Part shown: piece by piece, positions 433 to 33,027 of the stretch
Position numbering within the stretch: position 1 is the stretch's first letter
How the letters are laid out: each line of letters starts with the position of its first letter
Source: a virus
Taxonomy: Duplodnaviria; Caudoviricetes
DNA length: 57,225 nt
IMG/VR virus record: IMGVR_UViG_3300012952_000001
Span: 1 to 57,225 of that record
Strand: one strand, 5' to 3'
Program-made: the position numbers and the translations under genes
The notes under the pieces: generated by a model
Told to the model about the DNA's origin: nothing
The model's input: only the letters and a program-made list of their open reading frames with translations
The model's database searches: none

Positions 433-619
433 TACAGATAACGTGTTAGATGCTTTTTATGAAGGTATCCGTACTAACACACTACATAAATTACATATAC
501 CCCATAGTGATGTATTCTATGCTCGTGCTGCTATTGAGGCTCGGTATGGAAAAAGGTACAGTTTAAAGCGTGTAGAGGACGCTATGAGAGCTGAAGGGTG
601 GAAAGAAAAGGACGAATAA
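407..619 (+). CDS. Conserved hypothetical phage protein
   Basis: ORF 401..619, likely ATG 407; HIPHSDVFY motif; stop overlaps the next ATG. Confidence 0.7.
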   Translation: MPKKSVKLYTDNVLDAFYEGIRTNTLHKLHIPHSDVFYARAAIEARYGKRYSLKRVEDAMRAEGWKEKDE

Positions 620-1095
620 TGGAAACATTAGCTAATTTAAGAAAATTAATCAAAAAAGAAAACAAATTTCAAAAATTAAGCCCTAAAGAAAAATCATTTT
701 TGTATGCTTACGAAAAAACTTTAGGGGGAGATGTTACTTCTGAACAGCTTGAAGCTGCAAGAGAAAAAATGAATAGTATAGACCTATCTCCTGAAGTAAA
801 AGGTAACTTAAAAAGTATGCTTATGAAGGACCGCAATAGAGAAGAGGCATTAAAAAAAGATAGAGGTGGAGATATATCTAAAAAATCTAATAAAAAAGAT
901 AAAATAGCCGTAATGATAGCCGTAGGTAAACCTAAAATGGCTTACGGTGGCTCTGTAAAGGGTAAAAAACATTTCTATAGTAATGGTGGCTCTGTAAAAG
1001 ATAATGCAGGCTTAATAGCTTTAGGTAAGCAAAGTCCTTCAACCTATAAAAAAATTACAGGTAAAGAATTTAAGAATGAGTACAAAGGTCCGTAA
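619..1095 (+). CDS. Basic hypothetical protein with xxxGG motifs
   Basis: TAATG coupling at 617-621; KMAYGGSV and FYSNGGSV motifs. Confidence 0.75.
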   Translation: METLANLRKLIKKENKFQKLSPKEKSFLYAYEKTLGGDVTSEQLEAAREKMNSIDLSPEVKGNLKSMLMKDRNREEALKKDRGGDISKKSNKKDKIAVMIAVGKPKMAYGGSVKGKKHFYSNGGSVKDNAGLIALGKQSPSTYKKITGKEFKNEYKGP

Positions 1096-1342
1096 GTATA
1101 AAAGTGAGTACGCTCGCTACCAAGCAGCAGATTTACAAAAAAAGAAGAGAGCAGCTCGTAATAAAGCTCGTAGAATGATGGTAAAAGCAGGTGCAGTGCG
1201 CCCTGGAGATAAAAAAGATGTCGCACATAGAAACGGTAATCCTCTAGATAATCGAAGGTCTAATCTTACTGTTCAATCACAAACTAAAAATCGTTCATAC
1301 CCTCGTAATAGAAAAGCAGGTAAACGATTTCATGGCAGCTAA
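1076..1342 (+). CDS. HNH-like endonuclease
   Basis: KDVAH-RNGNPLDN-RRSNL-..NRS, an HNH-type motif. Confidence 0.7.
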   Translation: MSTKVRKYKSEYARYQAADLQKKKRAARNKARRMMVKAGAVRPGDKKDVAHRNGNPLDNRRSNLTVQSQTKNRSYPRNRKAGKRFHGS

Positions 1343-1356
1343 AGGGAGAATGTAAT

Positions 1357-1488
1357 ATGCCAATGCATAAAAAGAAAAAAGGTATGTCTAAAGGTGGCGC
1401 AATGAAGCCTAGAAAAATGATGGGTGGTGGCACTATGATGAAAAAGAAAAAAGGCTATGCTAGAGGTGGAGCTGCTAGACGTAGATAA
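1357..1488 (+). CDS. 43-aa Lys/Met/Gly-rich basic peptide (not in ORF track)
   Basis: GGGAG RBS; MPMHKKKKGMSKGGAMKPRKMMGGGTMMKKKKGYARGGAARRR; TAATG coupling to the next gene. Confidence 0.75.
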   Translation: MPMHKKKKGMSKGGAMKPRKMMGGGTMMKKKKGYARGGAARRR

Positions 1489-2213
1489 TGCCGTATCTCA
1501 TTAGTAACGTACCCCATTTTCATTGTTGGGTACGGAAAGAGTTTACGTCTAATCATTTAAAATACCACGGTGAATTTTTACACGCTATGGTATTTGCAGT
1601 TAATACAATACCTGACAGGTCACTCAGCTTTCAATTAGTATTTACAGGTTGTGAAGCAGACTTTGAAGATGGACCTGATAAAAATATACATGGTGGAGCT
1701 ATGTGGGCTAGAATGCCAATACAAGCACTTGTAGCCGACATACCACTAGATGAATGGTCAGAACCTATGGAAGACCATTTAGCACAACCTTGGGATTGTG
1801 AATCAAGACATCACAGTGTAGTCGTGATGGATAGAGTAAGTTCAAGCCCTTGGCTCTGTAAGATTGGTGGAGAGTTTTACAGGGGTAAATATTTATTTAC
1901 AGTAGACTATACAGATAGCGATATAGCAGATGACCCTGCTCAACATAAACAGTCGCATGTGTTATACTTACTAGACGCAGGGAAATGGACAGGAAATCTT
2001 GTTGCTTTACCTAATAACAGAGTTCGTGCAACAAGTCCTGCTTTGTGGGAAACTGGAGAAGGTGCGCCAGACTTTATGCCGTCTCAGTGGACGCACTCAG
2101 CAGAAAACCACGAAAGTTACCTAGACCCTAGTACAACCTTTGATAATTTATATAATGACAACAAAAGCAAAAAAAGTAATAAAAAAAGTAGCAGGCAAAT
2201 TAAAAAAAGCTAG
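1488..2213 (+). CDS. Conserved hypothetical marine phage protein
   Basis: 241-aa ORF, coupled start, globular composition. Confidence 0.8.
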   Translation: MPYLISNVPHFHCWVRKEFTSNHLKYHGEFLHAMVFAVNTIPDRSLSFQLVFTGCEADFEDGPDKNIHGGAMWARMPIQALVADIPLDEWSEPMEDHLAQPWDCESRHHSVVVMDRVSSSPWLCKIGGEFYRGKYLFTVDYTDSDIADDPAQHKQSHVLYLLDAGKWTGNLVALPNNRVRATSPALWETGEGAPDFMPSQWTHSAENHESYLDPSTTFDNLYNDNKSKKSNKKSSRQIKKS

Positions 2214-2436
2214 TAAAGCTCACGCAGGTCAAGCAAAGGCTTTATCAGCTTTAAAGCTAAATAAAGGTAGCTCTGTAAATAAAGCAGGCAACTACACTAA
2301 ACCTACAATGCGTAAAAGATTATTTAATTCTATTAAGGCAGGTAGTAAAGGTGGAAACCCAGGTCAATGGTCAGCTAGAAAAGCACAGTTACTTGCAAAT
2401 AGATATAAAAAAGCAGGTGGAGGTTATCGTGGATAA
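2155..2436 (+). CDS. Basic protein, N-terminal half of a DUF5872-like domain
   Basis: YTKPTMRKR...KGGNPGQWSARKAQLLA..YKKAGGGY. Confidence 0.7.
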   Translation: MTTKAKKVIKKVAGKLKKASKAHAGQAKALSALKLNKGSSVNKAGNYTKPTMRKRLFNSIKAGSKGGNPGQWSARKAQLLANRYKKAGGGYRG

Positions 2437-2593
2437 TGACTATATGCCTGAAGAAATAAATGACCTACAAAAAATAAATGTAGATATGAAAGAATTACCA
2501 CAACCCACCAAATCTTTCTTTACTTGGTTAGATGATATTACATCTAGAGAAGTAGGGAAAGATTTTTATACGTGGTTATTAGGAGATAAATAA
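2429..2593 (+). CDS. Small hypothetical protein
   Basis: GGAGG RBS then GTG at 2429; internal repeat FFTWL/FYTWL. Confidence 0.55.
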   Translation: MDNDYMPEEINDLQKINVDMKELPQPTKSFFTWLDDITSREVGKDFYTWLLGDK

Positions 2594-3138
2594 TGAAAAA
2601 AAATACCCCAACAAAAAAGAAATCTATTAAAGCCCATAGAGGTAGAATAGTATATGAAGGTAGAAGTCCTAGCCCTTTCCCTAGTCCTTTTCCTAGAAGA
2701 CCTAGAGGACCTAGACCATTTCCTATGCCGTTTAGAAGACCTGGACGACCTAGTATTTTAGGTAGACCTCCTAGAAGACCCCCCACAAAAGACCCTAGAG
2801 TAGGAACTCCTGTCTCATCACCTATGAGACCTACTCAGGTTGCAGAGAGACCTGCTATGAGTGTAGATAGGGTTGCTCCTACACAAAGAGCTACTAGAGT
2901 AGATATTCCTAGATATGCAAACCCTGCTATGTCTAGGGCAGAAGCACAAATGAGAGCAGCACAAGCTAGAGCAAGACGACTAATGCAAGCGGACTTATCA
3001 AATAGATTTCAAGCTGCACAACAACAACGATTAGCTAATAAAGGAATGGTTGTAACTAAAAAATCTATAGGTTCAAATGATTTTAGAAAAGGTGGATTAA
3101 CTTTATCTACAGTTGATAATAGAAAAAAAAGTAGCTAA
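2593..3138 (+). CDS. Pro/Arg-rich basic disordered protein
   Basis: PSPFP/RP repeats; ends DFRKGGLTLSTVDNRKKSS. Confidence 0.75.
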   Translation: MKKNTPTKKKSIKAHRGRIVYEGRSPSPFPSPFPRRPRGPRPFPMPFRRPGRPSILGRPPRRPPTKDPRVGTPVSSPMRPTQVAERPAMSVDRVAPTQRATRVDIPRYANPAMSRAEAQMRAAQARARRLMQADLSNRFQAAQQQRLANKGMVVTKKSIGSNDFRKGGLTLSTVDNRKKSS

Positions 3139-3150
3139 AAAGATAAATAA

Positions 3151-3630
3151 ATGATTGACCCCATCACTCTTTCAGCTGCTGTCACAGGTGCGACTACAGC
3201 CTACAATGCAGTTAAAAAAGCAATAATGCTAGGCAAAGAAGTAGAAGACTTATCTTCTGAACTAGGTCGTTGGATGACAGCTGTAAGTGATGTAGACAAC
3301 GTACATAAAAATGCTAATAATCCAACAACATTTGATAAATTATTTAATGGTTCTATTGAACAAGTAGCAATAGAAAGTTTTTCAGCTAAAAAGAAACTAG
3401 AAAAACAAAGAGAAGAACTACGAAATTTTTTAATTGCTCATTACGGCACACAAGCATGGGATGATTTACTAAGAGAGGAAGGTAGATTACGTAAGGCTAG
3501 ACAAAAAGCCATCTACGCAAAAGAAGAACAACAACGTAAAATAAGGGATTACACTATTATGGGATTAGCTTCTTTAGTAGGTGTAAGTGGTTTAGGTTGG
3601 ATGATATGGTTAATCAGCGTTTCTGTCTAA
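3151..3630 (+). CDS. Coiled-coil protein with C-terminal membrane anchor
   Basis: MIDPITL N-terminus, helical core, hydrophobic C-terminus. Confidence 0.75.
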   Translation: MIDPITLSAAVTGATTAYNAVKKAIMLGKEVEDLSSELGRWMTAVSDVDNVHKNANNPTTFDKLFNGSIEQVAIESFSAKKKLEKQREELRNFLIAHYGTQAWDDLLREEGRLRKARQKAIYAKEEQQRKIRDYTIMGLASLVGVSGLGWMIWLISVSV

Positions 3631-3911
3631 TTGTTTTAATTATTATATGTTTTATTATGCTATTTGGAATAGTAGCATTTTCAAAAGATAAAGAACCTAA
3701 AATGACTACTTGTAGATTAGCAAGTCAGATATTAGGAAATAATCAAAGGGTTTGTGTATTTGTAGGAGCAAATAATACTCAATATAGAGAATACGTACCA
3801 TATGATGCAGGACCTTGTCCTAGACAGTATAAATGTCCTTATAGACCAAATGAAGAACCTTTTGATATTAAAAGTGTAATTAAAAGTATAAAGGAACAAT
3901 TTAGAGACTAA
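3597..3911 (+). CDS. Small membrane-anchored or secreted Cys-containing protein
   Basis: N-terminal hydrophobic stretch; four Cys in the soluble part. Confidence 0.65.
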   Translation: MDDMVNQRFCLIVLIIICFIMLFGIVAFSKDKEPKMTTCRLASQILGNNQRVCVFVGANNTQYREYVPYDAGPCPRQYKCPYRPNEEPFDIKSVIKSIKEQFRD

Positions 3912-4162
3912 TGGCAACATTAAAAAAATCACAAAGGTCATTAAAGGCTTGGGGTAAACAAAAATGGAGAACTAAGTCTGGAAAGCCATCAAAACAAACA
4001 GGTGAAAGATATTTACCTACAGCAGCAATAAAATCACTAAGTCCTCAAGAGTATGCAGCAACGACAAAAGCAAAAAGAAAAGGGACTAGAGCAGGTAAAC
4101 AGTTTACAAAACAACCTAAAGGTATTGCAAAAAAGACTGCACGTTTTAGAAAATTTGCTTGA
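3911..4162 (+). CDS. Basic protein, C-terminal half of a DUF5872-like domain
   Basis: SQRSLKAWGKQKWRTKSGK..GERYLP..GKQF. Confidence 0.7.
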   Translation: MATLKKSQRSLKAWGKQKWRTKSGKPSKQTGERYLPTAAIKSLSPQEYAATTKAKRKGTRAGKQFTKQPKGIAKKTARFRKFA

Positions 4163-4187
4163 CAAACAAGATAATATCCTATATAAT
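4159..4187 (+). promoter_or_regulatory. sigma70-type promoter
   Basis: TTGACA(4159-4164)-17 bp-TATAAT(4182-4187). Confidence 0.7.
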
Positions 4188-4495: not shown

Positions 4496-4498
4496 AAA

Positions 4499-4842: not shown

Positions 4843-4843
4843 T

Positions 4844-8961: not shown

Positions 8962-11061
8962 ATGGCAGAAGAAGATAAACTTATTATAGAAGACGAATCT
9001 ATAGCTTTAGAAGATTCAGAAGATAACGAAGATACTGAAGTTAAAGAAGAAAAAAACAGTACTATTATTGATTACGTAATGTCTAAATATAGAAGGGCAG
9101 AAAACTATAGAAGACAGGACGAAGATAGATGGCTAAAGGCTTATAGAAACTATAGAGGTTTGTATGGACCTGATGTTCAATTTACAGAAGCTGAAAAGTC
9201 TAGAGTCTTTATTAAGATAACTAAAACTAAAACTTTAGCTGCCTATGGACAAATTGTTGATGTACTATTTGGAAGTAATAAATTTCCTTTAAGTGTAGAC
9301 CCAACAGAACTACCTGAAGGTGTAGCTAAAGATGTACACTTTGACCCTAAACAGCCTGCAGGAGATTCAAGCCCTTATGGATTTGCAGGAGATGGTCAAG
9401 ACTTACCTACAGGAGCTACTGAAAAAAGTTTAGTAGATTTATTAGGACCTGTTAAAGAAAAGTTACAGGACGTTCCTAATTTAAAAGAAGGCATAGGGCA
9501 AACTCCTACATCCGTAACTGTTAGTCCTGCTATGATTGCAGCTAAAGGTATGGAAAAGAAAATACATGACCAATTAGAAGAATCAAATGCTAATAAACAT
9601 TTACGTAGTGTAGCATTTGAAATGTCGCTATTTGGTACAGGCATAATGAAAGGTCCTTTTGCTGTAGATAAAGAATATCCTAATTGGAGTGAAGGTGGAG
9701 ATTATAGTCCTACTATAAAAACAGTACCTCAATTAAATCAAGTATCTGTATGGAACTTTTATCCTGACCCTGATGCATATAATATGGATGAAGCTCAATA
9801 TGCCATAGAAAGACATAGAATGTCTAGAATGCAGCTAAGAAGTCTTAAGAAAAGACCATACTTTAGAGAAAATGTAATAGACTCTTGTATAGAAATGGGA
9901 GAAAACTATGTTAAGAAACATTGGGAAGACGACTTAACTGATTACTCACCTGAACATGACATTGACAGATTTTCTGTAATTGAGTATTGGGGAGTTATAG
10001 ACTCTGAAATATTTAAAGAAGAAAATATAGAAATACCTGAAGAACTAGAAGATGCAGATGAATTACAGGCTAATGCTTGGATATGTAATGGTAAATTAAT
10101 TAGACTAGTATTAAACCCATTTAAACCTGCAAGAATACCATATATGGCTGTTCCATATGAATTAAACCCATACTCTTTCTTTGGTGTAGGTATAGCTGAA
10201 AATATGGATGATACGCAAACACTAATGAATGGTTTTATGCGTATGGCTGTTGATAATGGAATATTGTCAGGAAATCTTCTTATTGAAGTAGACGAAACAA
10301 ATTTAGTTCCAGGTCAAGATTTATCTGTCTATCCAGGCAAAATATTTAGAAGACAAGGTGGCGCTCCAGGTCAAGCTATTTTTGGTACAAAGTATCCAAA
10401 TGTATCTTCAGAAAATATGCAGTTGTTTGATAAAGCTAGACAATTAGCCGATGAGTCAACAGGTTTTCCATCTTTTGCACATGGTCAAACAGGTATAACA
10501 GGTGTAGGTAGAACTGCATCAGGTATATCTATGTTAATGAATGCGGCAACAGGTAGTATACGAACTGTAATAAAAAATCTAGACGATTATTTATTAAGAC
10601 CTTTAGGAGAAGGATTTTTTAGGTTTAATATGCAATTTGATTTTGACCCTAAAATACGTGGTGACTTAGAGGTTAAGGCTAGAGGAACAGAAAGTCTAAT
10701 GGCTAATGAAGTACGTAGTCAGAGATTAATGCAATTTTTAGGTACAGCAAGTAATCCTGCTCTTGCTCCATTTGCTAAATTTCAGTATGTAATTAGAGAA
10801 ATAGCAAAGTCTTTAGATTTAGACCCTGATAAAGTTACGAATAATATGGATGAAGCTGCAATACAAGCAGAACTTATGAAAGGATTTCAATCACCTCCAA
10901 CTGAACAGTCTCCTGTTGCAGGAGCTGACCCAATGGATTCAGCAGGCACAGGTGGTGGAACTATAGGTACAGGTCAAGTGCCTTTACCACAAGAACAAGG
11001 ATTTACAGGAAATGAACAACCACAAGGAACTCCTCAGCAAGCTCAAGCCGTTGGTCAATAA
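8962..11061 (+). CDS. Portal protein
   Basis: 699 aa directly after TerL; FGTGIMKGP, FYPDP, RTASG.SML motifs of podovirus portals. Confidence 0.85.
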   Translation: MAEEDKLIIEDESIALEDSEDNEDTEVKEEKNSTIIDYVMSKYRRAENYRRQDEDRWLKAYRNYRGLYGPDVQFTEAEKSRVFIKITKTKTLAAYGQIVDVLFGSNKFPLSVDPTELPEGVAKDVHFDPKQPAGDSSPYGFAGDGQDLPTGATEKSLVDLLGPVKEKLQDVPNLKEGIGQTPTSVTVSPAMIAAKGMEKKIHDQLEESNANKHLRSVAFEMSLFGTGIMKGPFAVDKEYPNWSEGGDYSPTIKTVPQLNQVSVWNFYPDPDAYNMDEAQYAIERHRMSRMQLRSLKKRPYFRENVIDSCIEMGENYVKKHWEDDLTDYSPEHDIDRFSVIEYWGVIDSEIFKEENIEIPEELEDADELQANAWICNGKLIRLVLNPFKPARIPYMAVPYELNPYSFFGVGIAENMDDTQTLMNGFMRMAVDNGILSGNLLIEVDETNLVPGQDLSVYPGKIFRRQGGAPGQAIFGTKYPNVSSENMQLFDKARQLADESTGFPSFAHGQTGITGVGRTASGISMLMNAATGSIRTVIKNLDDYLLRPLGEGFFRFNMQFDFDPKIRGDLEVKARGTESLMANEVRSQRLMQFLGTASNPALAPFAKFQYVIREIAKSLDLDPDKVTNNMDEAAIQAELMKGFQSPPTEQSPVAGADPMDSAGTGGGTIGTGQVPLPQEQGFTGNEQPQGTPQQAQAVGQ

Positions 11062-11224
11062 TAAAAACCAGTGGGTTGATTTTACTGATTATATAGATTG
11101 CATAATAAGTCAACATCATAAAGTATTAGAACAAAGTAGTGATATTGTTATTATACATCAGGCTCAAGGAGCTATATCTACATTACGTAGATTAAAACTA
11201 TTAAGAGATGAAGTAAATGGTTGA
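11012..11224 (+). CDS. Small conserved portal-adjacent protein
   Basis: QAQGAI..LRRL..LRDEV motif. Confidence 0.7.
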   Translation: MNNHKELLSKLKPLVNNKNQWVDFTDYIDCIISQHHKVLEQSSDIVIIHQAQGAISTLRRLKLLRDEVNG

Positions 11225-13304
11225 AACACCAGTTAAAAAACCTAGCATAAAACAAAGATATAATTTAGGTTTAGAAAAAGATATGTTATCTGAGTTAGGT
11301 TTAGAACTAGCTGAAAAAGGCGAAGTAAATATATCTCGTTTATTTCAAAGTGGTTTTAATACACGTCCAAGTGCAATGGGTATGTATACAAGAACACAAC
11401 TTCCGCCTGATTCTAACGAAGCTAAAATACTTAAAAAATACGGAAAAGGAAATACTAGTTTTATAGGAGATAAAAATATTCCTCAAGTAATGTATTTTGC
11501 AGATAGATTTAAAAATGATGCAGAAAATATAGAAATTTTAAACCATGAATTACGTCATGCTGCATTAGATTATTTAAAAAAGTTATATCCTGAGTCTCCT
11601 GACAATAAATTAAAATTAAAAATGGGTGTGCCTTTTGAAGAGGCTCTTATGGATTATATTGATTTTGTTAGACATCAAAAAGCAAAAAAGATGTTTAATG
11701 AAGAAGGTTATCAAAATATTACAGACTCTAAACAATTTAATCGTTACGAAAAAGTAATGAAAAAGCTGACCTCTGAAGATAAAAATAAACTAAAAAATAA
11801 TTACAATTTATTATCAAAACTAGCAGAGCAAGAATTAAGAAATGTTAAAGGTGTACAAAAGGCTGAATATGAAGATGAGGAAGAGTTAAGAGATGCATCT
11901 AAAGAAGATTTAGCACCTAAAAGTTTTATAGAAAAAATGTTAGGTCTTTTTAAACGAACACAAAAATTTAATACTGGAGGAGTATCAATGGAAAAACAAA
12001 TGGAAATGTTTCAAGACGGTGGACTAGAACAAGACGGTGGTACAGTAGACCCTGTATCAGGTAATGATGTGCCTATGGGTTCAGCTCAAAAAGAAGTTCG
12101 AGATGATATACCTGCACAACTAAGTGAAGGAGAGTTTGTATTTCCTGCTGATGTAGTTAGATTTATAGGCTTAGAAAGATTAATGGAAATAAGACAAAGA
12201 GCTAAAGCAGGACTAAAGAAGATGGAAGCTATGGGTCAAATGGGTAACTCTGAAGAAGCTACTATACCTGATGATATTCCTTTTACTATAGATGATTTAG
12301 AAATGGAAGAAGAGGAAGAAGTTTCTGCATATAAGGGAGGAACAATTAAATTAGAAAGTGGTGGTACACCATACGTTGCACCTACTATTGCTGCAGTACC
12401 TACTGCAACAGCTCCTGAAACAATACCGACTCCTGAAGAGTTTATTCCTTCTGTAGCAGACGAATATAGAGAATATGTAAATGATGAAGGTCATGTTATT
12501 GATGTGCCTTATTTTAGGGGTAGTATACTTCCAGGTTATAATATGCCTGCAGGTTATAGACTTAAAGAAGATGAAACAGTTTCTACAGGACAAGATATTA
12601 CTGACACTGCAATGTTAGATATTGTAGATAAGGATGGAGATTCTACATCCCCTGAAAATATGCAAAAAGCTAGAGAAGATATGAATCGTAGTTATGATAA
12701 TGTTGTTAGTCAAGTGATGCAAGATAATCCAGGTGCTAGCCTTGAAGAAATTACAAAGAAAATAAAAGGTGGTGAATCTACTATAAATATTTTTGGTAAA
12801 AAAATAAATGCTCCAGGTTTTTTATTTAATGAAGATGAAATAACAGCTGCTTATGATAGGGCTTTTTCAGGACCTGTAATTGATGATGAAGCGGATATTG
12901 TACCTGAAGAACCTAAACGTAGAGGTACTTTAATAGCAACAGATAAAGAAGGTAAAGTTACTGATGACGTAGCTCCAGGCTCTGCTAAAAGTCTTAACAT
13001 GACAGAGTCTGAAAATAAAGCTGTTAAAGAAGCTGCAGAAGCTAAAGAGAAAAAAAGAAGGGCTGTAGAAACGGCAAGACTAGAAGCTATGGCAGAAGCA
13101 GAACAAAGCAGAAAAGACGAAGCTGAAGCTAACAGAGCAGAAAGAGCAGGTACAACAAGTCTAGGTAAAAAAGTAGATACGGCTAGTCTTAGAGGTACAG
13201 GCAGAAGAGGTGGACAAGGTATTGTTCGTGCAAAAGGTGGCATAGCATCTAAACCTAAAAAGAAAAAAGCTATGAAGCGTGGTGGGTTAGCTTCTAAAAA
13301 ATAA
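11217..13304 (+). CDS. Virion-associated protein: HExxH domain plus DDIPAQLSEGEFV domain; probable second start at 11988
   Basis: HELRH at 11544-11558; internal GGAGGAG then in-frame ATG 11988; six xxxGG motifs. Confidence 0.75.
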   Translation: MVETPVKKPSIKQRYNLGLEKDMLSELGLELAEKGEVNISRLFQSGFNTRPSAMGMYTRTQLPPDSNEAKILKKYGKGNTSFIGDKNIPQVMYFADRFKNDAENIEILNHELRHAALDYLKKLYPESPDNKLKLKMGVPFEEALMDYIDFVRHQKAKKMFNEEGYQNITDSKQFNRYEKVMKKLTSEDKNKLKNNYNLLSKLAEQELRNVKGVQKAEYEDEEELRDASKEDLAPKSFIEKMLGLFKRTQKFNTGGVSMEKQMEMFQDGGLEQDGGTVDPVSGNDVPMGSAQKEVRDDIPAQLSEGEFVFPADVVRFIGLERLMEIRQRAKAGLKKMEAMGQMGNSEEATIPDDIPFTIDDLEMEEEEEVSAYKGGTIKLESGGTPYVAPTIAAVPTATAPETIPTPEEFIPSVADEYREYVNDEGHVIDVPYFRGSILPGYNMPAGYRLKEDETVSTGQDITDTAMLDIVDKDGDSTSPENMQKAREDMNRSYDNVVSQVMQDNPGASLEEITKKIKGGESTINIFGKKINAPGFLFNEDEITAAYDRAFSGPVIDDEADIVPEEPKRRGTLIATDKEGKVTDDVAPGSAKSLNMTESENKAVKEAAEAKEKKRRAVETARLEAMAEAEQSRKDEAEANRAERAGTTSLGKKVDTASLRGTGRRGGQGIVRAKGGIASKPKKKKAMKRGGLASKK

Positions 13305-13358: not shown

Positions 13359-13369
13359 AGGAGAAAAAC

Positions 13370-28094: not shown

Positions 28095-29966
28095 ATGGCA
28101 CAATTTAAAGCATTTAAACCTGCAGCAATGGAACGTATAGCTCGCAGTATGGGTTATCAAGGAGACATGAATTTATTTTCACAGTTTTTAGATAGAAACC
28201 CTGAACAAAAACATAAAATGGATAGATATAAAGATAAAGCTATACAAATGGCAAAGGGTGGTTACACTCTTAAATTACAAGAAGGTGGGGACACAACAGA
28301 AGGAGATACCACTGCTCCTCAAAATCTACCACAGGCAATGGTTAAACAAGCAGTACAACCTGAAGTACCTACAGGAGGAGCTGTAACTGTATCAGCTATA
28401 CCTGAAGCTGATTCTCAATTTATAGGTGAAGGTACAGGTCAGGTAGGAGATACTACACCTGTTGATGCCACTCAAGCAAACACTCAAACAGTAGACCCTG
28501 TAGCTACAAAAGCAGCTAATAAAATGGAAGCTACTGAAACAGGTCCTGCAGTAGATAGTGCTTTAAATTCTGTACAAGCTGCACAAACAAACCCTGACGA
28601 CCCTAGAGCTAAAGTAGTTGCTGCAGAACAAACTAAAACAGCTGTAGGCGATATAAAAGGTGCTAAAGGTGAAGCTATCCTAATGGATAGTCCTAACCAA
28701 AGAGAAATACAAGATGGTGAATTAATTGATGGTGTAGCTAATTCACAAAAAGCAGCTGAGTTTACAGAGCAAATACAGGCAGCTCAAGCTACTCCTTCAG
28801 CAAAAGCTACTGTAGCAGGACAATTAGATTCATTAATGCAACAATTTGAAGGTGGTAGAACTCCACCTTGGGCATCAGGTGCTATGCGAGCTGTTGCTGA
28901 AAGAATGGCAGCTAGAGGTCTTTCTTCTAGTTCTATAGAAGCACAGGCTATGATTCAAGCTACAATGGAATCAGCCTTACCTATTGCATCAGCAGACGCT
29001 AGTACACAAGCAAGATTTGAAGAGTTAAATTTATCTAATAGACAACAAAGAGCTATGCAAGCAGCTGAACAACGTGCTGCTTTTATGGGTCAAGAGTTTG
29101 ACCAAGCCTTTCAAGCTAGAGTACAGAATGCAAGTAAAATAGCAGATGTAGCTAATATGAACTTTACTGCAGAGCAACAAGTAGCTCTTGAAAATAGTCG
29201 TATAGCTAATACTATGAATTTACAAAATTTATCCAATACTCAGGCTTTAATTATGGCTGAGGCATCTTCTGTAGCTAATCTAGAACTAACAAGTTTAAAT
29301 AATAGACAACAAGCTGCAGTACAAAATTCTAAAAATTTCTTAGAAATGGATTTAGCTAATTTAAGTAATAAACAACAAACAGCAGTATTTAAGGCTCAAC
29401 AAGTTGTTCAAAGTATTTTTAATGACCAAGCAGCTGAAAATGCAGCTAGACAATTTAATGCTACGTCTCAAAATCAAACAGACCAATTTTTTGCAAACTT
29501 ATCTCAGCGAACAAAAGAGTTTAATGCATCTCAAACAAATGCACAGGCTCAGTTTAACGCAGGCGAAACAAACGCAATGGCTAAATTTAATGCAGAAATA
29601 GATAATCAACGTGACCAGTATAATGCTACTAATCAACTACAAATTGCTCAGTCTAACGCTGTATGGAGAAGAGAAATAGCTACTGCTGATACAGCCGCTG
29701 TAAATAGAGCAAATGAGTTAAATGCTAAAGCTATACTAGATATATCTTCAACAGCATATTCTAATCTTTGGGGTTATTATCAAGACACTATGGAGTTTGC
29801 GTGGAAAGCATCAGATAATGAATTAGATAGAATGAATCAATTAGCTATAGCACAGTTAGACGCAGACGCACAAGTAAGAGCAGAAAATATAAGAAGTAGA
29901 ACTTCTGCAGGAACAGCACTAGGTTCTTTAATAGGTACTTTAGGCACTACTTGGATGACAATGTAA
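28095..29966 (+). CDS. Putative internal virion (ejection) protein
   Basis: Ala/Gln/Asn-rich helical repeats (NLSNxQQ, QFNA). Confidence 0.7.
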   Translation: MAQFKAFKPAAMERIARSMGYQGDMNLFSQFLDRNPEQKHKMDRYKDKAIQMAKGGYTLKLQEGGDTTEGDTTAPQNLPQAMVKQAVQPEVPTGGAVTVSAIPEADSQFIGEGTGQVGDTTPVDATQANTQTVDPVATKAANKMEATETGPAVDSALNSVQAAQTNPDDPRAKVVAAEQTKTAVGDIKGAKGEAILMDSPNQREIQDGELIDGVANSQKAAEFTEQIQAAQATPSAKATVAGQLDSLMQQFEGGRTPPWASGAMRAVAERMAARGLSSSSIEAQAMIQATMESALPIASADASTQARFEELNLSNRQQRAMQAAEQRAAFMGQEFDQAFQARVQNASKIADVANMNFTAEQQVALENSRIANTMNLQNLSNTQALIMAEASSVANLELTSLNNRQQAAVQNSKNFLEMDLANLSNKQQTAVFKAQQVVQSIFNDQAAENAARQFNATSQNQTDQFFANLSQRTKEFNASQTNAQAQFNAGETNAMAKFNAEIDNQRDQYNATNQLQIAQSNAVWRREIATADTAAVNRANELNAKAILDISSTAYSNLWGYYQDTMEFAWKASDNELDRMNQLAIAQLDADAQVRAENIRSRTSAGTALGSLIGTLGTTWMTM

Positions 29967-29979
29967 TAAGGGAGTAAAT

Positions 29980-30228
29980 ATGGCTTTAACAAATCCTGCC
30001 AAATCACTGTATTATAATGCAGAACAATATTATAAACTAAAAAAAGAACAAACTAATAATACACCTAAAACAGGTTTATTAGGACAAAAAAATAATAGTA
30101 ACTTTATGAGTACTAAAATTTCTTCTAATAATGGAGAAGAGTCTCCTGCACAAAGAGCAGCTAATTATTTTATTACACTTAGAAATAAAAGAATGGAATT
30201 AAACAATGGCAACACTAGAACAACCTGA
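29980..30228 (+). CDS. Hypothetical protein, internal virion module
   Basis: GGGAG RBS; 82 aa. Confidence 0.65.
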   Translation: MALTNPAKSLYYNAEQYYKLKKEQTNNTPKTGLLGQKNNSNFMSTKISSNNGEESPAQRAANYFITLRNKRMELNNGNTRTT

Positions 30229-30700
30229 ATTTAACGCACCTATTCCAGGCATGGGAATGACTGCAGAACTAGGTGGAAGACCTTGGCAAGTACCCCCACA
30301 ATATAATACTATTGAAGAAGCACTAGATTATTATATTCCTCGTATAACATCTAAGGAATTTAGAAGAAAATTATTTGATACACTTGAACTTGGAGTTCCT
30401 GTAACTACAATAGCAAACACACTTCAGCTATCAGGTGTTATAGAAAGTAAACATACGGTAGATGTAGGTATGCTATTAATTCCTGTACTAATGGAATTTA
30501 TAATGCTTATGGCAGATGAAGTAAATATTAAATACACTTCAGGTTTAGAAGAGCCTAAAAAACTTAGAGATTCTGCTATAGAATTAGCTTCTTCAAAATT
30601 TGAAGACGCAATGATGAATGTAAAACAAGATGTCGAAGAAAAACCTGACGAAGAAGAAAGTAAAGAGTCTAAGGGTTTAATGGCAAAGAGAGGTAAGTAA
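30206..30700 (+). CDS. Conserved internal virion module protein
   Basis: FNAPIPG...PWQ.PPQY; ends KGLMAKRGK. Confidence 0.7.
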   Translation: MATLEQPEFNAPIPGMGMTAELGGRPWQVPPQYNTIEEALDYYIPRITSKEFRRKLFDTLELGVPVTTIANTLQLSGVIESKHTVDVGMLLIPVLMEFIMLMADEVNIKYTSGLEEPKKLRDSAIELASSKFEDAMMNVKQDVEEKPDEEESKESKGLMAKRGK

Positions 30701-33027
30701 TGTCGTTTTTTAGTGGTTTAGCTACAGGTGTAATGACTAGTATAGATAGAACTCTACAGAGAGAACTGCAAGAGACTCGTGATTACAATAAAGAAATAAA
30801 TAAAATTAGATTTAAAGAACAGATGGAAGAAAAAGACGAGTGGGATGATGATGTAGAAGAAGCAAAAAAAGCATTAGAAAATGGTGCTTCTGTATTTACT
30901 ATGCCTGATGGAAGTAGAGACCCTAGAGGAGTTTACTATGCTGCAGCTGCTTTAAAAAGAAGTGGTTCTTTAACTGACTATAATGCGTTTATAGCTAACT
31001 TAAAAACAGCTAAAAGCTCAGGAGACATTAATCCTATTGAATATTTTTCTCAACTTCCTGAAGATTATACAATAGGTTCAGCAACAGATTATGCTCAGGC
31101 ATTTGTAGGTCCTATGGCAGATTATTCTGAAATAGAACCGTATTCTATTAAAACTCCTGCTCTTAAATTTTTAAGTAATATAATGGGTAAACCTTTAAAT
31201 AGTAGAAAACAAATGAATAAAATATTAGAACAAAAGTTAAAAGCTGCAGGAATAGATAATATGGCTATTAATTCTAGTATAAGTTTACCAACTCTTAATT
31301 TTTTAGATTATAAGTTTACTTTAGAGCAGTTAGACCCTTCATCTAGAATAACAAAAATTAAATCTGAGTTAATGAAACCTGAGATAAATAAAAGTTATAA
31401 CGCAGATAAAAAAGAATATTATTTAAATATGAGAAAAAAGACTTTAGATATTATAAAAGCAGAAGGAAATCTTACAGAACAAATAGAAGCAAATCAACTT
31501 GTAATAGATTCATTAGATAACGATAATCCTGAAGATGCAGCTATAATACTAGAACTACAACAAGAAAATGTTCAATTAAATGATACTAAAAAAAGAAGAG
31601 AATTAGTTTTAGATGGTAATCCATTAAAAATTATTGACCATGATATAGATATACTAGCAAGAGAAATACAACAGGCTAAAAACTCAAGTAAATCGGATAA
31701 AAATTCTACATTAGCTTCTTTAAGAGAAGAATTAAATGAAAAATTAGAAGAAAAGTACTCAATAGGAATAGAAAGTGACACAATTACTAATAGCGAGAAA
31801 CTACAACTTATGAAAGATAGGTTTGCTAGACTAGTAAACAATCCAGACTATGTAAATAGCGAAGACGCTAAAGTTGATGAACTTGCTATTTTTAATTTAG
31901 ATAGAGATATTAGACTATTAAATATTGGACCTTTTGATTCTATTAAATTTAATACTTGGCAAAAAGCAGTAGATACTGAGATATATAATAAGCTAAGACA
32001 AGATTTAAATCTTAGAAAGTTTTTAGAGTTTAGCCAAGATGGCAGTGCAACAGTAACAATTAATATGGCAGCTGTAGAAAAAGCAAAAAGTACTGGAGCA
32101 GATGCCGACGCTATAATTTCAGATATACAAGCTGCGAAAATTCGTATAGGAAAAACTTATCTTGACCAAAGGTTAGAAATATTTGAAGAGGTATTTGAAC
32201 CTGAACTTTTTAAAGTTGCTGAGTTATATTATGCAGACCCTAAAAATAACCTTGGTAAAATAGATGACTCTTTTAGAACGTCTTACAAAATAAGAGGTTC
32301 AGTAATAGATGATTTAAGAAAGGGAAAATTAAAAGAGCCTATGTTAAGTACTAGTAGTGAAGATAGCGATGATAATGCAGCAAGTAGCACTAGTAATAAA
32401 ACAAGTACTAATAATCAAACAGAAGAAATATTAGAGTCTTCAGATATTGAATCACCAGTTAAAAAACCTAGTATAGCTGAAAGAAGTAAAACTGATTTTT
32501 CATTAACTGATACAGGAATTGATAACTTTGTAAAAAAATCTTTAGAAGTAGATAAAAATGCTACTGCATCAGAAATAGTTGAAGCATTAGAAAAATTACA
32601 CGAAGATAAAAACTTAAAAATTTCTGATAAGCAGTTAAGTTTAATTAAAAGTAAAATAGTAGATTATTCTAAACCAACTAGTGCAAGCGTTACTGCAAAG
32701 GAAAAAAGTGTTGATGAAGAAGGCTCTGAATCATCTAATGTTCTTAAAGATATGATTAACAATATTCCAAAGATTCCTGGAAAAATTGTAGGTGCTTATC
32801 AACGTAGTAGAGTTATAAATACTGCAAAACAAGAATATAATAAATTAAGAGATAGACAAGATATTAGTGCAACAAGAAAACAGTCTGATATTTTAGAAGA
32901 TTTAAAAATTTTTCTAAGAGATAATAATTATAGCTCAGACGAAATAAGGTATGAAATAGAAAATATCGTTAGACCTGTAAAAAAATTAATGAAAAATAGT
33001 TCAGGTGGATTAATGAGTAGGAGTTAA
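30700..33027 (+). CDS. Putative internal virion (ejection) protein
   Basis: MSFFSGLATG N-terminus, helical 775 aa, ends GGLMSRS. Confidence 0.7.
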   Translation: MSFFSGLATGVMTSIDRTLQRELQETRDYNKEINKIRFKEQMEEKDEWDDDVEEAKKALENGASVFTMPDGSRDPRGVYYAAAALKRSGSLTDYNAFIANLKTAKSSGDINPIEYFSQLPEDYTIGSATDYAQAFVGPMADYSEIEPYSIKTPALKFLSNIMGKPLNSRKQMNKILEQKLKAAGIDNMAINSSISLPTLNFLDYKFTLEQLDPSSRITKIKSELMKPEINKSYNADKKEYYLNMRKKTLDIIKAEGNLTEQIEANQLVIDSLDNDNPEDAAIILELQQENVQLNDTKKRRELVLDGNPLKIIDHDIDILAREIQQAKNSSKSDKNSTLASLREELNEKLEEKYSIGIESDTITNSEKLQLMKDRFARLVNNPDYVNSEDAKVDELAIFNLDRDIRLLNIGPFDSIKFNTWQKAVDTEIYNKLRQDLNLRKFLEFSQDGSATVTINMAAVEKAKSTGADADAIISDIQAAKIRIGKTYLDQRLEIFEEVFEPELFKVAELYYADPKNNLGKIDDSFRTSYKIRGSVIDDLRKGKLKEPMLSTSSEDSDDNAASSTSNKTSTNNQTEEILESSDIESPVKKPSIAERSKTDFSLTDTGIDNFVKKSLEVDKNATASEIVEALEKLHEDKNLKISDKQLSLIKSKIVDYSKPTSASVTAKEKSVDEEGSESSNVLKDMINNIPKIPGKIVGAYQRSRVINTAKQEYNKLRDRQDISATRKQSDILEDLKIFLRDNNYSSDEIRYEIENIVRPVKKLMKNSSGGLMSRS

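What the first reader, a model, noticed from the sequence alone, without database searches (positions are those of the whole stretch)
619..33027. Shared hydrophobic-x-x-G-G peptide tag on small basic and internal virion proteins: candidate head-loading or cleavage system
Seen: a motif close to [KRG]-[MFYL]-x-x-G-G-x-[VILMA] recurs in otherwise unrelated proteins. 619-1095 has KMAYGGSV and FYSNGGSV. 1357-1488 has GMSKGGAM, KMMGGGTM and GYARGGAA. 2155-2436 has the variant KLNKGSSV, and 2593-3138 has DFRKGGLT. 11217-13304 has KFNTGGVS, MFQDGGLE, SAYKGGTI, KLESGGTP, VRAKGGIA and AMKRGGLA. 28095-29966 has QMAKGGYT and KLQEGGDT, and 30700-33027 has KNSSGGLM. It often sits at termini or domain borders, and I did not see this form in the capsid or scaffold proteins. 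From recall, not a search: the DDIPAQLSEGEFV-type domain of 11217-13304 also occurs in tape-measure proteins flanked by F/Y-A-x-G-G motifs. That gene lies between portal and scaffold, the usual place of a prohead protease. Inference: a phage-wide signal for cleaving or loading cargo into the head, read by this domain, analogous to T4 capsid-targeting sequences.
Basis: partly seen in the sequence, partly recalled or inferred. Interest (0 to 1): 0.8.

Follow-up and report, generated by a model that had tools for sequence, protein, structure and literature searches.

The report
Shared glycine-pair tag on ejection proteins
A short hydrophobic-x-x-Gly-Gly peptide is conserved in several internal proteins of an abundant marine phage and beside a small module that tape-measure proteins also carry, which suggests a common docking signal for proteins that are packed into the head and shot into the host, though what reads the signal is still unknown.

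Summary
The window is a complete 57,225-bp HMO-2011-type podophage. All 17 quoted strings are there. Enrichment inside this one proteome is modest (17 vs 9.0±2.9 in shuffles). The motif is nonetheless clustered in tandem pairs (5 vs 0.43, 0/1000) and strongly conserved in orthologues: 20/20, 11/11, 56/61 and 223/224 sequences in four families.

The gene 11217-13304 is not a prohead protease. It is a portal-adjacent polyvalent-type protein with a variable N-terminal cargo domain, an almost invariant ~95-aa module, a C-domain and a basic C-terminal tag. In this window the cargo is a rare HExxH domain.

The module with flanking motifs also occurs near the C-termini of siphophage tape-measure proteins and in ejection-type proteins of four other phage lineages.

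Best reading (0.4): a non-covalent docking/assembly motif of the packaged, ejected protein set. Cleavage has no supporting evidence and no conserved protease was found in the proteins scanned. Whether the module reads the motif stays open. I found no published description.

The parts
619..1095 (+). Small basic protein (net charge +19). Its N-part is variable. Its conserved C-terminal region carries a tandem motif pair at aa 106-113 and 119-126 (nt 934-957 and 973-996).
   Evidence: Searches give the strings. Searches show M107, G110, G111, Y120 and G124 invariant in 20 of 20 distinct orthologues. One search shows that HMO-2011 gp67 keeps both motifs. One search gives the charge.
1357..1488 (+). 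43-aa, very basic protein that is an array of three Lys/Arg-flanked motif repeats.
   Evidence: 10 loci hold relatives with a variable number of repeats. Pelagibacter phage HTVC115P has a comparable 45-aa protein (gp73) between its portal gene and its module gene.
2155..2436 (+). Basic protein with a conserved C-terminal domain (phrog_17747). Here the motif is only a degenerate variant (KLNKGSSV). This is a weak member of the set.
   Evidence: phrog_17747, E 1.9e-33; some orthologues carry a regular x-A-K-G-G motif upstream of the domain; the window's copy does not fit the core.
2593..3138 (+). Pro/Arg-rich basic protein (net +33) whose only conserved part is a C-terminal tag, DFRKGG followed by a hydrophobic stretch and a basic end (nt 3079-3135).
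   Evidence: 11 of 11 relatives share the last ~25 aa, while their N-parts (about 45 to 430 aa) do not align. HMO-2011 gp68 ends in the same kind of tag.
11217..11861 (+). N-terminal cargo domain of the portal-adjacent protein. It is zincin-like, with HELRH at aa 110-114 and a Glu pair at aa 141-142.
   Evidence: the HExxH and the EE are invariant in 5 of 5 sequences; only 4 homologues were found. AF2 pTM 0.67, with HExxH in helix 101-123; the best fold match is a zincin-like metalloprotease, E 0.1, not significant.
11964..11987 (+). Junction motif (KFNTGGVS) between the cargo and the conserved core of the protein.
   Evidence: a strict motif lies 43-49 aa before the core in 145 of 164 N-extended relatives. 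Relatives without an extension start about 38-42 aa before the core.
11997..12284 (+). Conserved module, aa ~261-356. It comprises the M-F-x-D-G-G-L motif, the DDIPAQLSEGEFV core and the following helix.
   Evidence: 44 invariant columns between aa 268 and 352 in 101 sequences; 6840 relatives; 2990 cluster representatives; hhalign 92% to a tape-measure C-terminus and 94.6% to HTVC115P gp72. AF2 pLDDT only about 50-70 here.
12324..12371 (+). Motif pair after the module (SAYKGGTI and KLESGGTP).
   Evidence: a strict motif lies 60-100 aa after the core in 211 of 224 relatives.
12444..12866 (+). Folded C-domain of the portal-adjacent protein (aa ~410-550).
   Evidence: pLDDT 85-96 in two stretches; this part is shared, with divergence, by most relatives; no significant match in the PDB.
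13224..13301 (+). Basic C-terminal tag with two motifs. The protein ends in MKRGGLASKK.
   Evidence: 153 of 245 relatives end in this type of tail, and exactly this 10-mer ends 69 of them. Many of the other relatives are fragments from contig ends.
28095..29966 (+). 623-aa Gln/Asn/Ala-rich protein with a hydrophobic C-terminus, a candidate ejection protein. It has a tandem motif pair at aa 51-67 (nt 28245-28295).
   Evidence: 56 of 61 distinct orthologues (52-72% identical) keep two motifs at about 52 and 60-66. HMO-2011 gp25 has them at the same positions, and CRP-1 gp35 has them at 497 and 506 behind an N-terminal extension.
30206..30700 (+). 164-aa protein with an acidic stretch and a different conserved C-terminal tail of the G-L-M-A-[KR]-R type (nt 30674-30697).
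Evidence: 63 of 65 distinct orthologues have G-L-M-x-[RK] in the last 12 aa.
30700..33027 (+). 775-aa protein whose C-terminus (KNSSGGLMSRS, nt 32992-33024) belongs to the G-G-L-M tail type, not to the hydrophobic-x-x-G-G motif.
   Evidence: it does not fit the core; 5 of 11 orthologues end in G-G-L-M-x-[RK].
8962..11061 (+). Portal protein, the upstream neighbour of the module gene (context). It is strongly acidic (net -37) and free of the motif.
   Evidence: phrog_332 and phrog_1216. (SU10_portal, E 2.7e-24)..

Best explanation
The hydrophobic-x-x-Gly-Gly-hydrophobic peptide is a short linear docking or assembly motif. It marks the set of proteins that this phage packs into its head and ejects with the DNA.

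The hub of that set is the portal-adjacent protein 11217-13304. It has an almost invariant ~95-aa module that itself begins with one such motif and is followed by another. It also carries a variable N-terminal cargo domain (here a zincin-like one) and ends in a basic tag with two more motifs. Free proteins carry the same motif, usually in pairs 6-17 aa apart and often next to Lys/Arg runs: 619-1095, 1357-1488, 2593-3138 and the N-terminal region of 28095-29966.

I propose that these motifs act as small hydrophobic knobs on otherwise disordered chains. They would plug non-covalently into a conserved site of the internal assembly, either the module itself or another conserved part at the portal vertex. 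In this way cargo and basic proteins would be co-packaged and leave through the tail channel with the DNA. Siphophage tape-measure proteins, the functional counterparts of podophage ejection proteins, use the same module-plus-motif unit near their C-terminus.

Shown: the conservation, the positions, the modular architecture and the tape-measure homology. Inferred: presence in the virion, ejection, non-covalent docking, and what the receptor is.
For: (1) Purifying selection acts on the motif while its surroundings diverge. Both motifs are invariant in 20 of 20 relatives of 619-1095. The tag is kept in 11 of 11 relatives of 2593-3138 whose N-parts do not align. The pair is kept in 56 of 61 relatives of 28095-29966. 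HMO-2011 and CRP-1 orthologues keep them.

(2) In 224 relatives of 11217-13304 the motif lies exactly 31 aa before the core in 223. It lies 60-100 aa after the core in 211. It sits at the cargo-core junction in 145 of 164 N-extended forms. A tail ending in the motif plus basic residues closes 153 of 245.

(3) Relatives carry unrelated N-terminal domains: methyltransferase, L5 gp82-like, ART-PolyVal, phage lysozyme, GH19, DUF6782 peptidase and LPD23. This is the signature of virion-packaged, injected polyvalent proteins (passages of PMC5512222). The gene sits directly after the portal gene here, in HMO-2011, in CRP-1 and in HTVC115P.

(4) The module has 44 invariant columns, yet it is not predicted as a confident autonomous fold (pLDDT about 50-70). 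This fits a segment that folds on a partner.

(5) The same core with a motif just before it, and a second motif 25-35 aa after it in 4 of the 5 copies, occurs in five tape-measure copies from four phages: Burkholderia phiBt-TXDOH, Nitrincola 1M3-16, JBD30 gp46 and Douge gp16 (two copies) (hhalign 92%, E 6e-7). It also occurs, preceded by one to three motif pairs, in proteins of Rhizobium phage RHph_TM3_14A, HTVC027P, 023Pt_psg01 and HTVC115P.

(6) The motifs are clustered in pairs (5 vs 0.43 expected, 0 of 1000 shuffles). They are confined to the late strand (16 vs 1, p = 0.009).

(7) Precedent: extended segments that plug into neighbouring subunits hold the pre-ejectosome of cyanopodophage A4 together (passages of PMC12002296). 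The authors of the JBD30 structure predicted the module stretch (aa 1022-1066) to be a hook that anchors the tape measure inside the baseplate (passages of PMC11445458).
Against: - No data show that the tagged small proteins are in virions. No virion proteomics of an HMO-2011-type phage turned up.
- The receptor is unidentified.
- Enrichment within the single proteome is weak, and my motif definitions were chosen after seeing the instances.
- Fused cargo does not need a docking peptide, yet the junction motif is kept in 145 of 164 fused forms. A cleavage model explains this more naturally.
- HMO-2011 gp49 and CRP-1 gp49 lack the basic C-terminal tag, so that tag is not essential for the family.
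- Three orthologues of 28095-29966 lack the pair at the usual place.
- The occurrence in tape measures, which are not head proteins, means that 'head loading' cannot be the whole story.
- The hydrophobic-x-x-G-G-hydrophobic pattern is also what a helix C-cap looks like (my recollection of helix-capping rules; AF2 puts a helix up to the Gly pair at aa 258-267). Part of the pattern may therefore be purely structural.
Confidence: 0.4

Rival explanations
1. The motif and the module work after ejection, not in assembly. They would be part of the envelope-crossing conduit, for example by anchoring in the tail channel exit, binding cell wall or membrane, or self-assembling into the trans-periplasmic tube. 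The small basic proteins would be co-ejected helpers. This is the feature that podophage ejection proteins and siphophage tape measures have in common.
For: - The module-plus-motif unit lies near the C-terminus of tape measures, the end that leaves the tail first (passages of PMC10038345 and PMC11445458).
- In HTVC027P gp82 and 023Pt_psg01 it follows Gly-rich hydrophobic, membrane-like segments.
- Relatives of 11217-13304 carry lysozyme, GH19 and cell-wall hydrolase domains.
- The core is near-identical across phages of Proteobacteria and Actinobacteria. This suggests a universal partner rather than a lineage-specific virion protein.
Against: - It does not explain C-terminal tags on unrelated small basic proteins, nor the junction motif in fused cargo.
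- No cell-wall-binding or membrane family matches the module.
- It is not exclusive of the docking reading.
Confidence: 0.2
2. The Gly pair marks proteolytic processing sites. A phage or host protease would cut after or near G-G. This would release cargo domains from the polyvalent protein, trim C-terminal tails and chop the basic repeat protein into short DNA-binding peptides. From my recollection it resembles the Gly-Gly-X maturation of core proteins in adenovirus and African swine fever virus.
For: - The motif sits at the cargo-core junction in 145 of 164 fused forms, and at further borders in long relatives.
- Polyvalent proteins often carry metallopeptidase domains proposed to process them (passages of PMC5512222). 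This window's protein has an HExxH domain.
- Tape measures of T5 and lambda are cleaved near their C-terminal part during assembly (passages of PMC10038345).
Against: - No protease family was found in the 29 window proteins scanned against Pfam and/or PHROGs. The coat is P22-like in HMO-2011, and from recollection that system needs no prohead protease.
- The HExxH domain is present in only 5 sequences of a family of thousands, so it cannot be the general enzyme.
- Cutting after the last Gly pair would remove only 5-13 residues. Those residues are themselves conserved: one identical 10-mer ends 69 of 245 relatives.
- The mapped T5 site is after an Arg, not a Gly pair.
- From recollection, adenovirus-type sites have the hydrophobic residue one position closer to the Gly pair.
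Confidence: 0.15
3. The motif-bearing proteins are internal DNA-condensing or charge-neutralising proteins. The Lys/Arg runs do the work, and the motif is a spacer or helix cap between them, with no specific protein partner.
For: - Seven small proteins between nt 598 and 5119 have net charges of +16 to +33.
- The motifs in 619-1095, 1357-1488, 2593-3138 and at the end of 11217-13304 have 4-9 Lys/Arg within about 20 aa and at most two acidic residues.
- The repeat number of the 43-aa protein varies freely.
Against: - The best-conserved copies lie in acidic or neutral surroundings. The copy at aa 265 has 5 Asp/Glu and 1 Lys/Arg nearby. The second motif of 28095-29966 has 4 Asp/Glu.
- Three of the seven basic small proteins have no motif.
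- Tape-measure copies are not basic.
Confidence: 0.12
4. There is no common function. The pattern would be a by-product of Gly- and Lys-rich low-complexity composition and of post-hoc motif definition.
For:
- Several extra hits in tail-fibre-like proteins look like chance.
Against: - Position-specific conservation holds across hundreds of diverged orthologues in four families.
- The motif recurs next to the same module in unrelated phage lineages.
- Pair clustering was reached by 0 of 1000 shuffles.
Confidence: 0.04

Closest known systems
Polyvalent proteins and MuF (SPP1 gp7 / Mu F)-anchored effector fusions of phages (Iyer et al. 2017, PMC5512222, passages read)
   Same: - The gene sits next to the portal gene.
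- One conserved anchor is combined with many unrelated enzymatic domains in orthologues.
- Relatives carry the Pfam families ART-PolyVal and LPD23, which were defined on polyvalent proteins.
- The predicted fate is packaging into the head and injection.
   Different: - There is no MuF domain and no other Pfam, PHROG or NCBIfam family on the anchor.
- The anchor is a new ~95-aa module shared with tape measures.
- Cargo is N-terminal to the anchor.
- A short motif shared with separate small proteins has not been described for those systems in the passages I read.
C-terminal 'hook' region of siphophage tape-measure proteins (JBD30 gp46 aa 1022-1066, PDB 8rk3; Douge gp16, PDB 8zdo)
   Same: - The core sequence matches. 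Burkholderia tape-measure C-terminus vs PDB chains: 8rk3_A E 2.6e-10, 8zdo_S E 3.5e-8. HTVC115P gp72 vs PDB chains: 8zdo_S E 2.2e-7, 8rk3_A E 2.8e-4. hhalign of the window's family against a tape measure: 92%.
- The motif stands directly before the core in all five copies and again about 30 aa after it in four of them.
   Different: - The tape measures are tail proteins of long-tailed phages. Here the module sits in a head-module gene of a podophage, with about 20 extra residues between the motif and the core.
- The region is not resolved in either structure. Only the last 33 and 42 residues were built.
- Its proposed anchor role is the JBD30 authors' speculation. Their Appendix figure S8 could not be seen.
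T4 capsid-targeting sequences of internal proteins
   Same: A short peptide shared by unrelated proteins that end up inside the head and are injected.
   Different: - T4's signal is N-terminal and is removed by the prohead protease.
- Here the motif is internal or C-terminal and often doubled.
- No protease was found.
Encapsulin cargo-loading peptides (my recollection, no call)
   Same: Short C-terminal peptides made of Gly, hydrophobic and basic residues, attached to diverse cargo. They bind the inner face of an HK97-fold shell. The C-terminal tags of 2593-3138 and 11217-13304 and the G-L-M-A-R-R tail of 30206-30700 have that general look.
   Different: - No homology or binding was tested.
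- The occurrence in tape measures argues against a capsid-wall receptor for the motif itself.
Pre-ejectosomes and ejection proteins of podophages (T7 core, cyanophage A4, SU10 gp20-24; passages of PMC12002296 and PMC9509320)
   Same: - Several large proteins are encoded at the end of the structural operon, stored in the head and expelled.
- Extended segments act as plugs between subunits in A4.
- The portal and the adaptor here belong to SU10-type families.
   Different: No sequence similarity of the motif-bearing proteins to those proteins was detected. No shared short motif is reported in the passages read.

Membership tests
Prohead (maturation) protease | A recognisable protease fold with catalytic residues, conserved in all relatives of the gene | tested here: not met
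   Pfam, PHROGs and NCBIfam give no protease family for 11217-13304. The HExxH domain is found in only 5 sequences, against 6840 relatives of the module.
Prohead (maturation) protease | Gene lies between the portal gene and the scaffold or capsid genes | tested here: met
   Gene order is portal 8962-11061, 11217-13304, scaffold-like 13313-14254, capsid 14490-15608. MuF-type minor head proteins take the same position, so position alone does not decide.
Polyvalent proteins (Iyer et al. 2017) | Two or more domains of disparate activity in one polypeptide, varying among orthologues | tested here: met
   Relatives carry methyltransferase, ART-PolyVal, L5 gp82-like, lysozyme, GH19, DUF6782 and LPD23 domains N-terminal to the same module. 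The window's own protein has a zincin-like domain, the module and a C-domain.
Polyvalent proteins (Iyer et al. 2017) | Encoded among virion genes, packaged and injected | tested here: inconclusive
   The neighbourhood criterion is met. Packaging and injection cannot be tested here, and no proteomics was found.
MuF / SPP1 gp7 minor head protein family | Match to the Phage_Mu_F domain | tested here: not met
   No such hit at E <= 0.1 in Pfam, nor in PHROGs or NCBIfam.
Tape-measure proteins | Long, largely helical protein encoded between tail-tube/chaperone genes and tail-tip genes of a long-tailed phage | tested here: not met
   The window has podophage tail genes: an SU10-type adaptor, a tubular-tail-B homologue and fibres. 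The gene lies in the head module. Only the ~33-65-aa core of the module is shared.
Tape-measure C-terminal module (unnamed; not covered by Pfam) | Core of the S/D-D-S/D-I-P-A-x-L-S-x-G-E-F-V type, preceded and followed by hydrophobic-x-x-G-G | tested here: met
   Window aa 296-308, with motifs at aa 265 and 379. hhalign 92% and 94.6%. Pfam families on the tape measures cover other parts.
T4-type capsid-targeting sequence | N-terminal peptide removed by the prohead protease at a defined site | tested here: not met
   The motifs are internal or C-terminal, and no prohead protease was found. Removal itself cannot be tested with these tools.
Gly-Gly-X processing by adenain/Ulp1-like or C39-like cysteine proteases | Presence of such a protease in the genome | tested here: inconclusive
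   None appeared in the 29 window proteins scanned with Pfam and/or PHROGs. Most small ORFs and the early-strand genes were not scanned, and a host enzyme cannot be excluded.

The most novel reading that the evidence does not exclude
HMO-2011-type phages, and more widely phages whose ejection or tape-measure proteins carry this module, would use a modular cargo code. The ~95-aa module would be a hub that binds hydrophobic-x-x-G-G knobs in cis and in trans. Any protein given such a knob, whether a free basic protein or a fused enzyme, would then be loaded into the pre-ejectosome and delivered into the host. That would be a phage counterpart of encapsulin cargo-loading peptides. It would explain how thousands of variants of one gene swap effector domains freely.
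Probability: 0.2. Interest if true: 0.85.

Novelty: new variant of a known kind. Interest (0 to 1): 0.6.

Why it matters
HMO-2011-type phages are among the most abundant viruses in the sea (abstract of PMC9038755). Yet their portal-adjacent gene and their small basic genes are annotated 'hypothetical' in every record seen.

This work shows three things:
- The portal-adjacent gene is a hypervariable effector-delivery protein built on an unrecognised anchor module, with 6840 relatives and many enzymatic cargo types.
- The same module links podophage internal proteins to siphophage tape measures.
- A short conserved motif is shared with several other proteins.

Together these give a concrete, testable handle on two open questions: how internal and ejected proteins are recruited in protease-less podophages, and what the unresolved C-proximal part of tape measures does. 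If the motif is a transferable loading tag, it could also be used to load foreign proteins into phage heads.

Tried and rejected
- **Complex prediction.** I tested the module (aa 256-369, alignment A1) against the C-terminal 67 aa of 619-1095 (alignment A2). Verdict: no answer, score 0.00, controls not run. This is evidence neither for nor against binding.
- **AF2 of aa 240-695**. The module gets low confidence. Foldseek against the PDB gives no match with E <= 0.001.
- **Sequence search of the whole protein against the PDB.** Nothing at E <= 1.
- **Pfam, PHROGs and NCBIfam on the motif-bearing proteins.** No informative family except phrog_17747 (unknown function) for 2155-2436.
- **Protein Atlas.** The nearest named cluster was a crAss cargo-protein domain at score 0.84. 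This is below the level at which such hits mean anything, and Pfam does not confirm it.
- **Signal-peptidase/LexA-type serine motif.** I considered that the tape-measure form of the core resembles the catalytic-serine motif of these peptidases. That resemblance is recalled, not tested by alignment. I rejected it as unsupported: no such Pfam hit at E <= 0.1, the HMO-2011-type core has Asp at that place, and the predicted structure after the core is helical.
- **Longer, fused forms of the 619-1095 tag.** None found (weak evidence by the tool's own note).
- **N-terminal domain fold search.** The best hit is a zincin-like protease at E 0.1 only.
- **Not seen.** Supplements (for example the JBD30 Appendix Fig. 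S8 with the predicted hook) and the original HMO-2011 description were not seen. They may bear on virion composition.

Full report
**What the window is.** The window is a complete virus record of 57,225 bp with direct terminal repeats. Genes run on the + strand from about 400 to 36,772 and on the - strand from there to the end.

- The + strand holds small genes, the large terminase, the portal, head, tail and large internal proteins.
- The - strand holds the replication genes.
- tblastn of the 695-aa product of 11217-13304 finds 14 phage records. All but one unclassified Caudoviricetes record are Puniceispirillum phage HMO-2011 or roseophages of the HMO-2011 type.
- In all but one record the match covers only residues ~245-350.
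- The portal and the adaptor match SU10-type families. The capsid protein matches major-head PHROGs. 22760-24295 is the tubular-tail-B-type protein that is annotated 'amidase' in HMO-2011.

- The simpler core [MFYL]-x-x-G-G fits 12.
- KLNKGSSV, SAYKGGTI and VRAKGGIA are off-register variants.
- KNSSGGLM belongs to a separate tail type (below).
- The portal, the scaffold-like protein and the capsid protein have no core motif.

**Chance, within the window's own proteome.** I took 83 ORFs from a simple longest-ORF call and shuffled each protein on its own. The enrichment is modest:

| Pattern | Observed | Shuffled | Shuffles reaching it |
|---|---|---|---|
| Plain core | 23 | 17.9±3.9 | 60 of 500 |
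| Core with a polar residue before the Gly pair | 17 | 9.0±2.9 | 4 of 500 |

These definitions were chosen after seeing the instances. Two further statistics are stronger:

- Neighbouring motifs within 20 aa: 5 pairs against 0.43±0.63, reached by 0 of 1000 shuffles.
- Restriction to the late strand: 16 in 11,563 aa against 1 in 6,597 aa, Fisher p = 0.009, with the Gly-rich ORF 17979-18989 left out.

**Conservation, which decides the matter.** I fetched 80 loci around relatives of the terminase and 80 around relatives of 28095-29966 from viral contigs. I compared ORFs by BLAST and MAFFT.

1. *619-1095 family.*
   - It has 20 distinct sequences that are 29-46% identical overall.
   - The N-parts hardly align.
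   - The C-terminal ~55 aa keep both motifs: M107, G110, G111, Y120 and G124 are invariant.
   - HMO-2011 gp67 has the same pair.
2. *1357-1488 family.*
   - Relatives in 10 loci are arrays of Lys-flanked Met-rich motif repeats with a varying copy number.
   - Pelagibacter phage HTVC115P has a similar 45-aa protein directly between its portal gene and its module gene.
3. *2593-3138 family.*
   - 11 of 11 relatives share only the last ~25 residues: a DFRKGG-type motif, a hydrophobic stretch and a basic end.
   - The N-parts range from about 45 to 430 aa.
   - HMO-2011 gp68 ends the same way.
4. *28095-29966 family.*
   - 56 of 61 distinct N-complete orthologues keep two motifs at about residue 52 and 60-66.
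   - HMO-2011 gp25 has them at 52 and 61. CRP-1 gp35 has them at 497 and 506, behind an N-terminal extension.
   - Five of the 61 lack a full pair at the usual place. Three of these (L090, L091, L144) have no motif there at all and carry motifs at residues 7 and 88 instead.
5. *2155-2436.*
   - This is a weak case. Its conserved part is a different domain (phrog_17747), and only some relatives have a regular motif upstream.

**The gene 11217-13304.** A word-indexed search with residues 240-350 returns 6840 proteins of 382-1217 aa. An exhaustive HMMER search returns 2990 cluster representatives, 788 of them below 1e-30.

- *The module.* In an alignment of 101 of these proteins, 44 columns between residues 268 and 352 are invariant, while the mean column identity is 12%.
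- *The N-terminal side differs from protein to protein.*
  - Pfam finds methyltransferase, L5 gp82-like, ART-PolyVal, phage tail lysozyme, GH19, DUF6782 (putative metallopeptidase) and LPD23 domains in seven of ten relatives scanned.
  - Short forms begin 38-42 residues before the core.
- *The window's own N-terminal 240 residues.*
  - They have only four homologues.
  - In all five sequences HELRH and a Glu pair 27 residues later are invariant.
  - AF2 gives a β-sheet plus an active-site-helix arrangement (pTM 0.67).
  - The best, non-significant, fold matches include zincin-like proteases (E 0.1).
  - I read this as one more cargo domain of the peptidase kind that is common in polyvalent proteins (passages of PMC5512222). 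I do not read it as a head-maturation protease.

The family thus has the hallmarks of polyvalent, virion-delivered proteins, but its anchor is not MuF or any family known to Pfam, PHROGs or NCBIfam.

**The motif inside that family.** I examined 245 relatives, 224 of which match my core expression. Two further relatives were added for the junction count (226 with a core).

- A strict motif lies exactly 31 aa before the core in 223 of 224.
- It lies 60-100 aa after the core in 211 of 224.
- It lies 43-49 aa before the core, at the cargo-core junction, in 145 of the 164 that have an N-terminal extension.
- 153 of 245 end in a motif followed by Leu/Ile-Ala-Ser and basic residues. One identical 10-mer, MKRGGLASKK, ends 69 of them. 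Many of the remainder are contig-end fragments.
- HMO-2011 gp49 and CRP-1 gp49 have another C-terminal domain instead.
- Inside the long cargo parts the motif is only mildly enriched: 62 against 44.3±6.6, reached by 3 of 200 shuffles.

- tblastn of the module gives weak hits to tape measures (E 0.5-1) and to pelagiphages (E 0.006-0.01).
- Read in full, the tape measures of Burkholderia phage phiBt-TXDOH and Nitrincola phage 1M3-16 show three elements in order: the motif; three or four residues later a Gly/Thr-rich turn and the S-D-S-I-P-A...G-E-F-V core; and a second motif about 30 aa downstream.
- The same unit is in JBD30 gp46 (PDB 8rk3) and twice in mycobacteriophage Douge gp16 (PDB 8zdo).
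- The family profile aligns to the Nitrincola tape measure with 92% probability (E 6e-7, 33 columns). It aligns to HTVC115P gp72 with 94.6% (65 columns, including the downstream motif).
- Further proteins carry one to three motif pairs followed by the core: Rhizobium phage RHph_TM3_14A, HTVC027P gp82 and phage 023Pt_psg01. In the latter two the unit follows Gly-rich hydrophobic segments.
- In both solved phages only the last 33 or 42 residues of the tape measure were built, so the unit has no experimental structure.
- The JBD30 authors predicted residues 1022-1066 to form a hook and speculated that it anchors the tape measure in the baseplate after release of the C-terminal domain. I could not see their appendix figure.
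- Pfam families on these tape measures cover other regions.

**Structure and binding attempts.**

- AF2 on residues 240-695 with 101 sequences gives pLDDT about 50-70 for the module and 85-96 for a C-domain at about residues 410-550.
- A highly conserved stretch that is not predicted to fold alone fits a segment that folds on a partner or in an oligomer. This is an inference.
- Neither model finds a significant PDB neighbour.

**Is there a protease?** I scanned 29 window proteins with Pfam and/or PHROGs. They comprise the motif-bearing proteins, the portal, the scaffold-like, capsid, adaptor and tail proteins, and the large terminal proteins. None matched a protease family. The early genes and most small ORFs were not scanned. 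The cleavage variant therefore has sites but no enzyme. The conservation of the few residues that follow the last Gly pair also argues that they are part of the signal and not a discarded stub.

**Other tails.**

- The 164-aa protein 30206-30700 ends, after an acidic run, in a G-L-M-A-[KR]-R-type tail in 63 of 65 distinct orthologues.
- The 775-aa protein's G-G-L-M-S-R end recurs in 5 of 11.

**Reading.** I commit to the docking/assembly reading (0.4).

- *Main rival (0.2).* The unit acts only after ejection, in the envelope-crossing conduit. The tape-measure and membrane-like contexts favour this. The two readings are not exclusive.
- *Cleavage (0.15).* It is kept alive by the junction position of the motif.
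- *Plain DNA-condensing role (0.12).* It fits the basic proteins but not the acidic, best-conserved copies.
- *Chance (0.04).* It is disfavoured by the position-specific conservation.

**Literature.** The searches were:

- HMO-2011-type phages: 19 papers listed, passages of PMC9038755 read.
- HMO-2011 virion proteomics.
- Polyvalent proteins.
- Motif strings SDSIPA, LSEGEFV, LSNGEFV and DDIPAQL: none of the listed top-ranked papers holds any of them, and the hits are an unrelated medical acronym.
- Tape-measure and ejection-protein motifs.

I found no description of the module or of the shared motif. Subscription journals, supplements and the original HMO-2011 paper were not available to me.

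Noticed in passing
window 11217-11861: The N-terminal domain of the portal-adjacent protein carries an invariant HELRH plus a Glu pair 27 residues later. This is a zincin-like arrangement. Only 4 homologues were found, all fused to the same kind of module.
   Followed up: yes
window 30206-30700 and 30700-33027: A second kind of conserved C-terminal tail is present. G-L-M-x-[RK] follows an acidic run in 63 of 65 orthologues of the 164-aa protein. G-G-L-M-x-[RK] ends 5 of 11 orthologues of the 775-aa protein.
   Followed up: partly
window 598-5119: There is a cluster of seven small, very basic proteins (net +16 to +33) at the start of the late strand. Only four of them carry the motif or a variant of it. 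3911-4162 and 4844-5119 have none.
   Followed up: partly
window 1076-1342: An 88-aa basic ORF matches the HNH_3 endonuclease family (E 1.1e-5, just above the gathering score). It overlaps the end of 619-1095.
   Followed up: no
window 1488-2213: A 241-aa protein matches phrog_3704 (E 1.6e-29). That family is labelled ferredoxin / auxiliary metabolic gene. The gene sits among the small basic genes.
   Followed up: no
window 17979-18989: A Gly-rich protein (Pfam Gly_rich_2, 42 Gly-Gly dipeptides) inflates any raw count of Gly pairs. It was left out of several statistics for that reason.
   Followed up: partly
window 11012-11224: A 70-aa helical ORF overlaps the portal's end and abuts the module gene. 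It is conserved in 54 of 80 loci and corresponds to HMO-2011 gp50. Its function is unknown.
   Followed up: no
L090, L091, L144 (orthologues of 28095-29966): Three orthologues lack the motif pair at residues ~52/60. They have motifs at residues 7 and 88 instead, so the motif seems to have moved rather than been lost.
   Followed up: no
P0085 (relative of 11217-13304): The junction motif with its following K-Q-M stretch occurs twice: once between two cargo parts (about aa 377) and once before the module (about aa 598). It looks as if a tagged cargo cassette had been inserted.
   Followed up: no
L170 (phage 023Pt_psg01) 5989-7605 and L169 (HTVC027P) 6052-6891: The genes downstream of the module genes in these phages start with one to three motifs within their first 40 residues. 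Motif-bearing partners next to the module gene may therefore be general.
   Followed up: no
For 26918-27859 no orthologues were recovered in the 80 loci. The conservation of all four hits is untested, and they may be chance.
   Followed up: no
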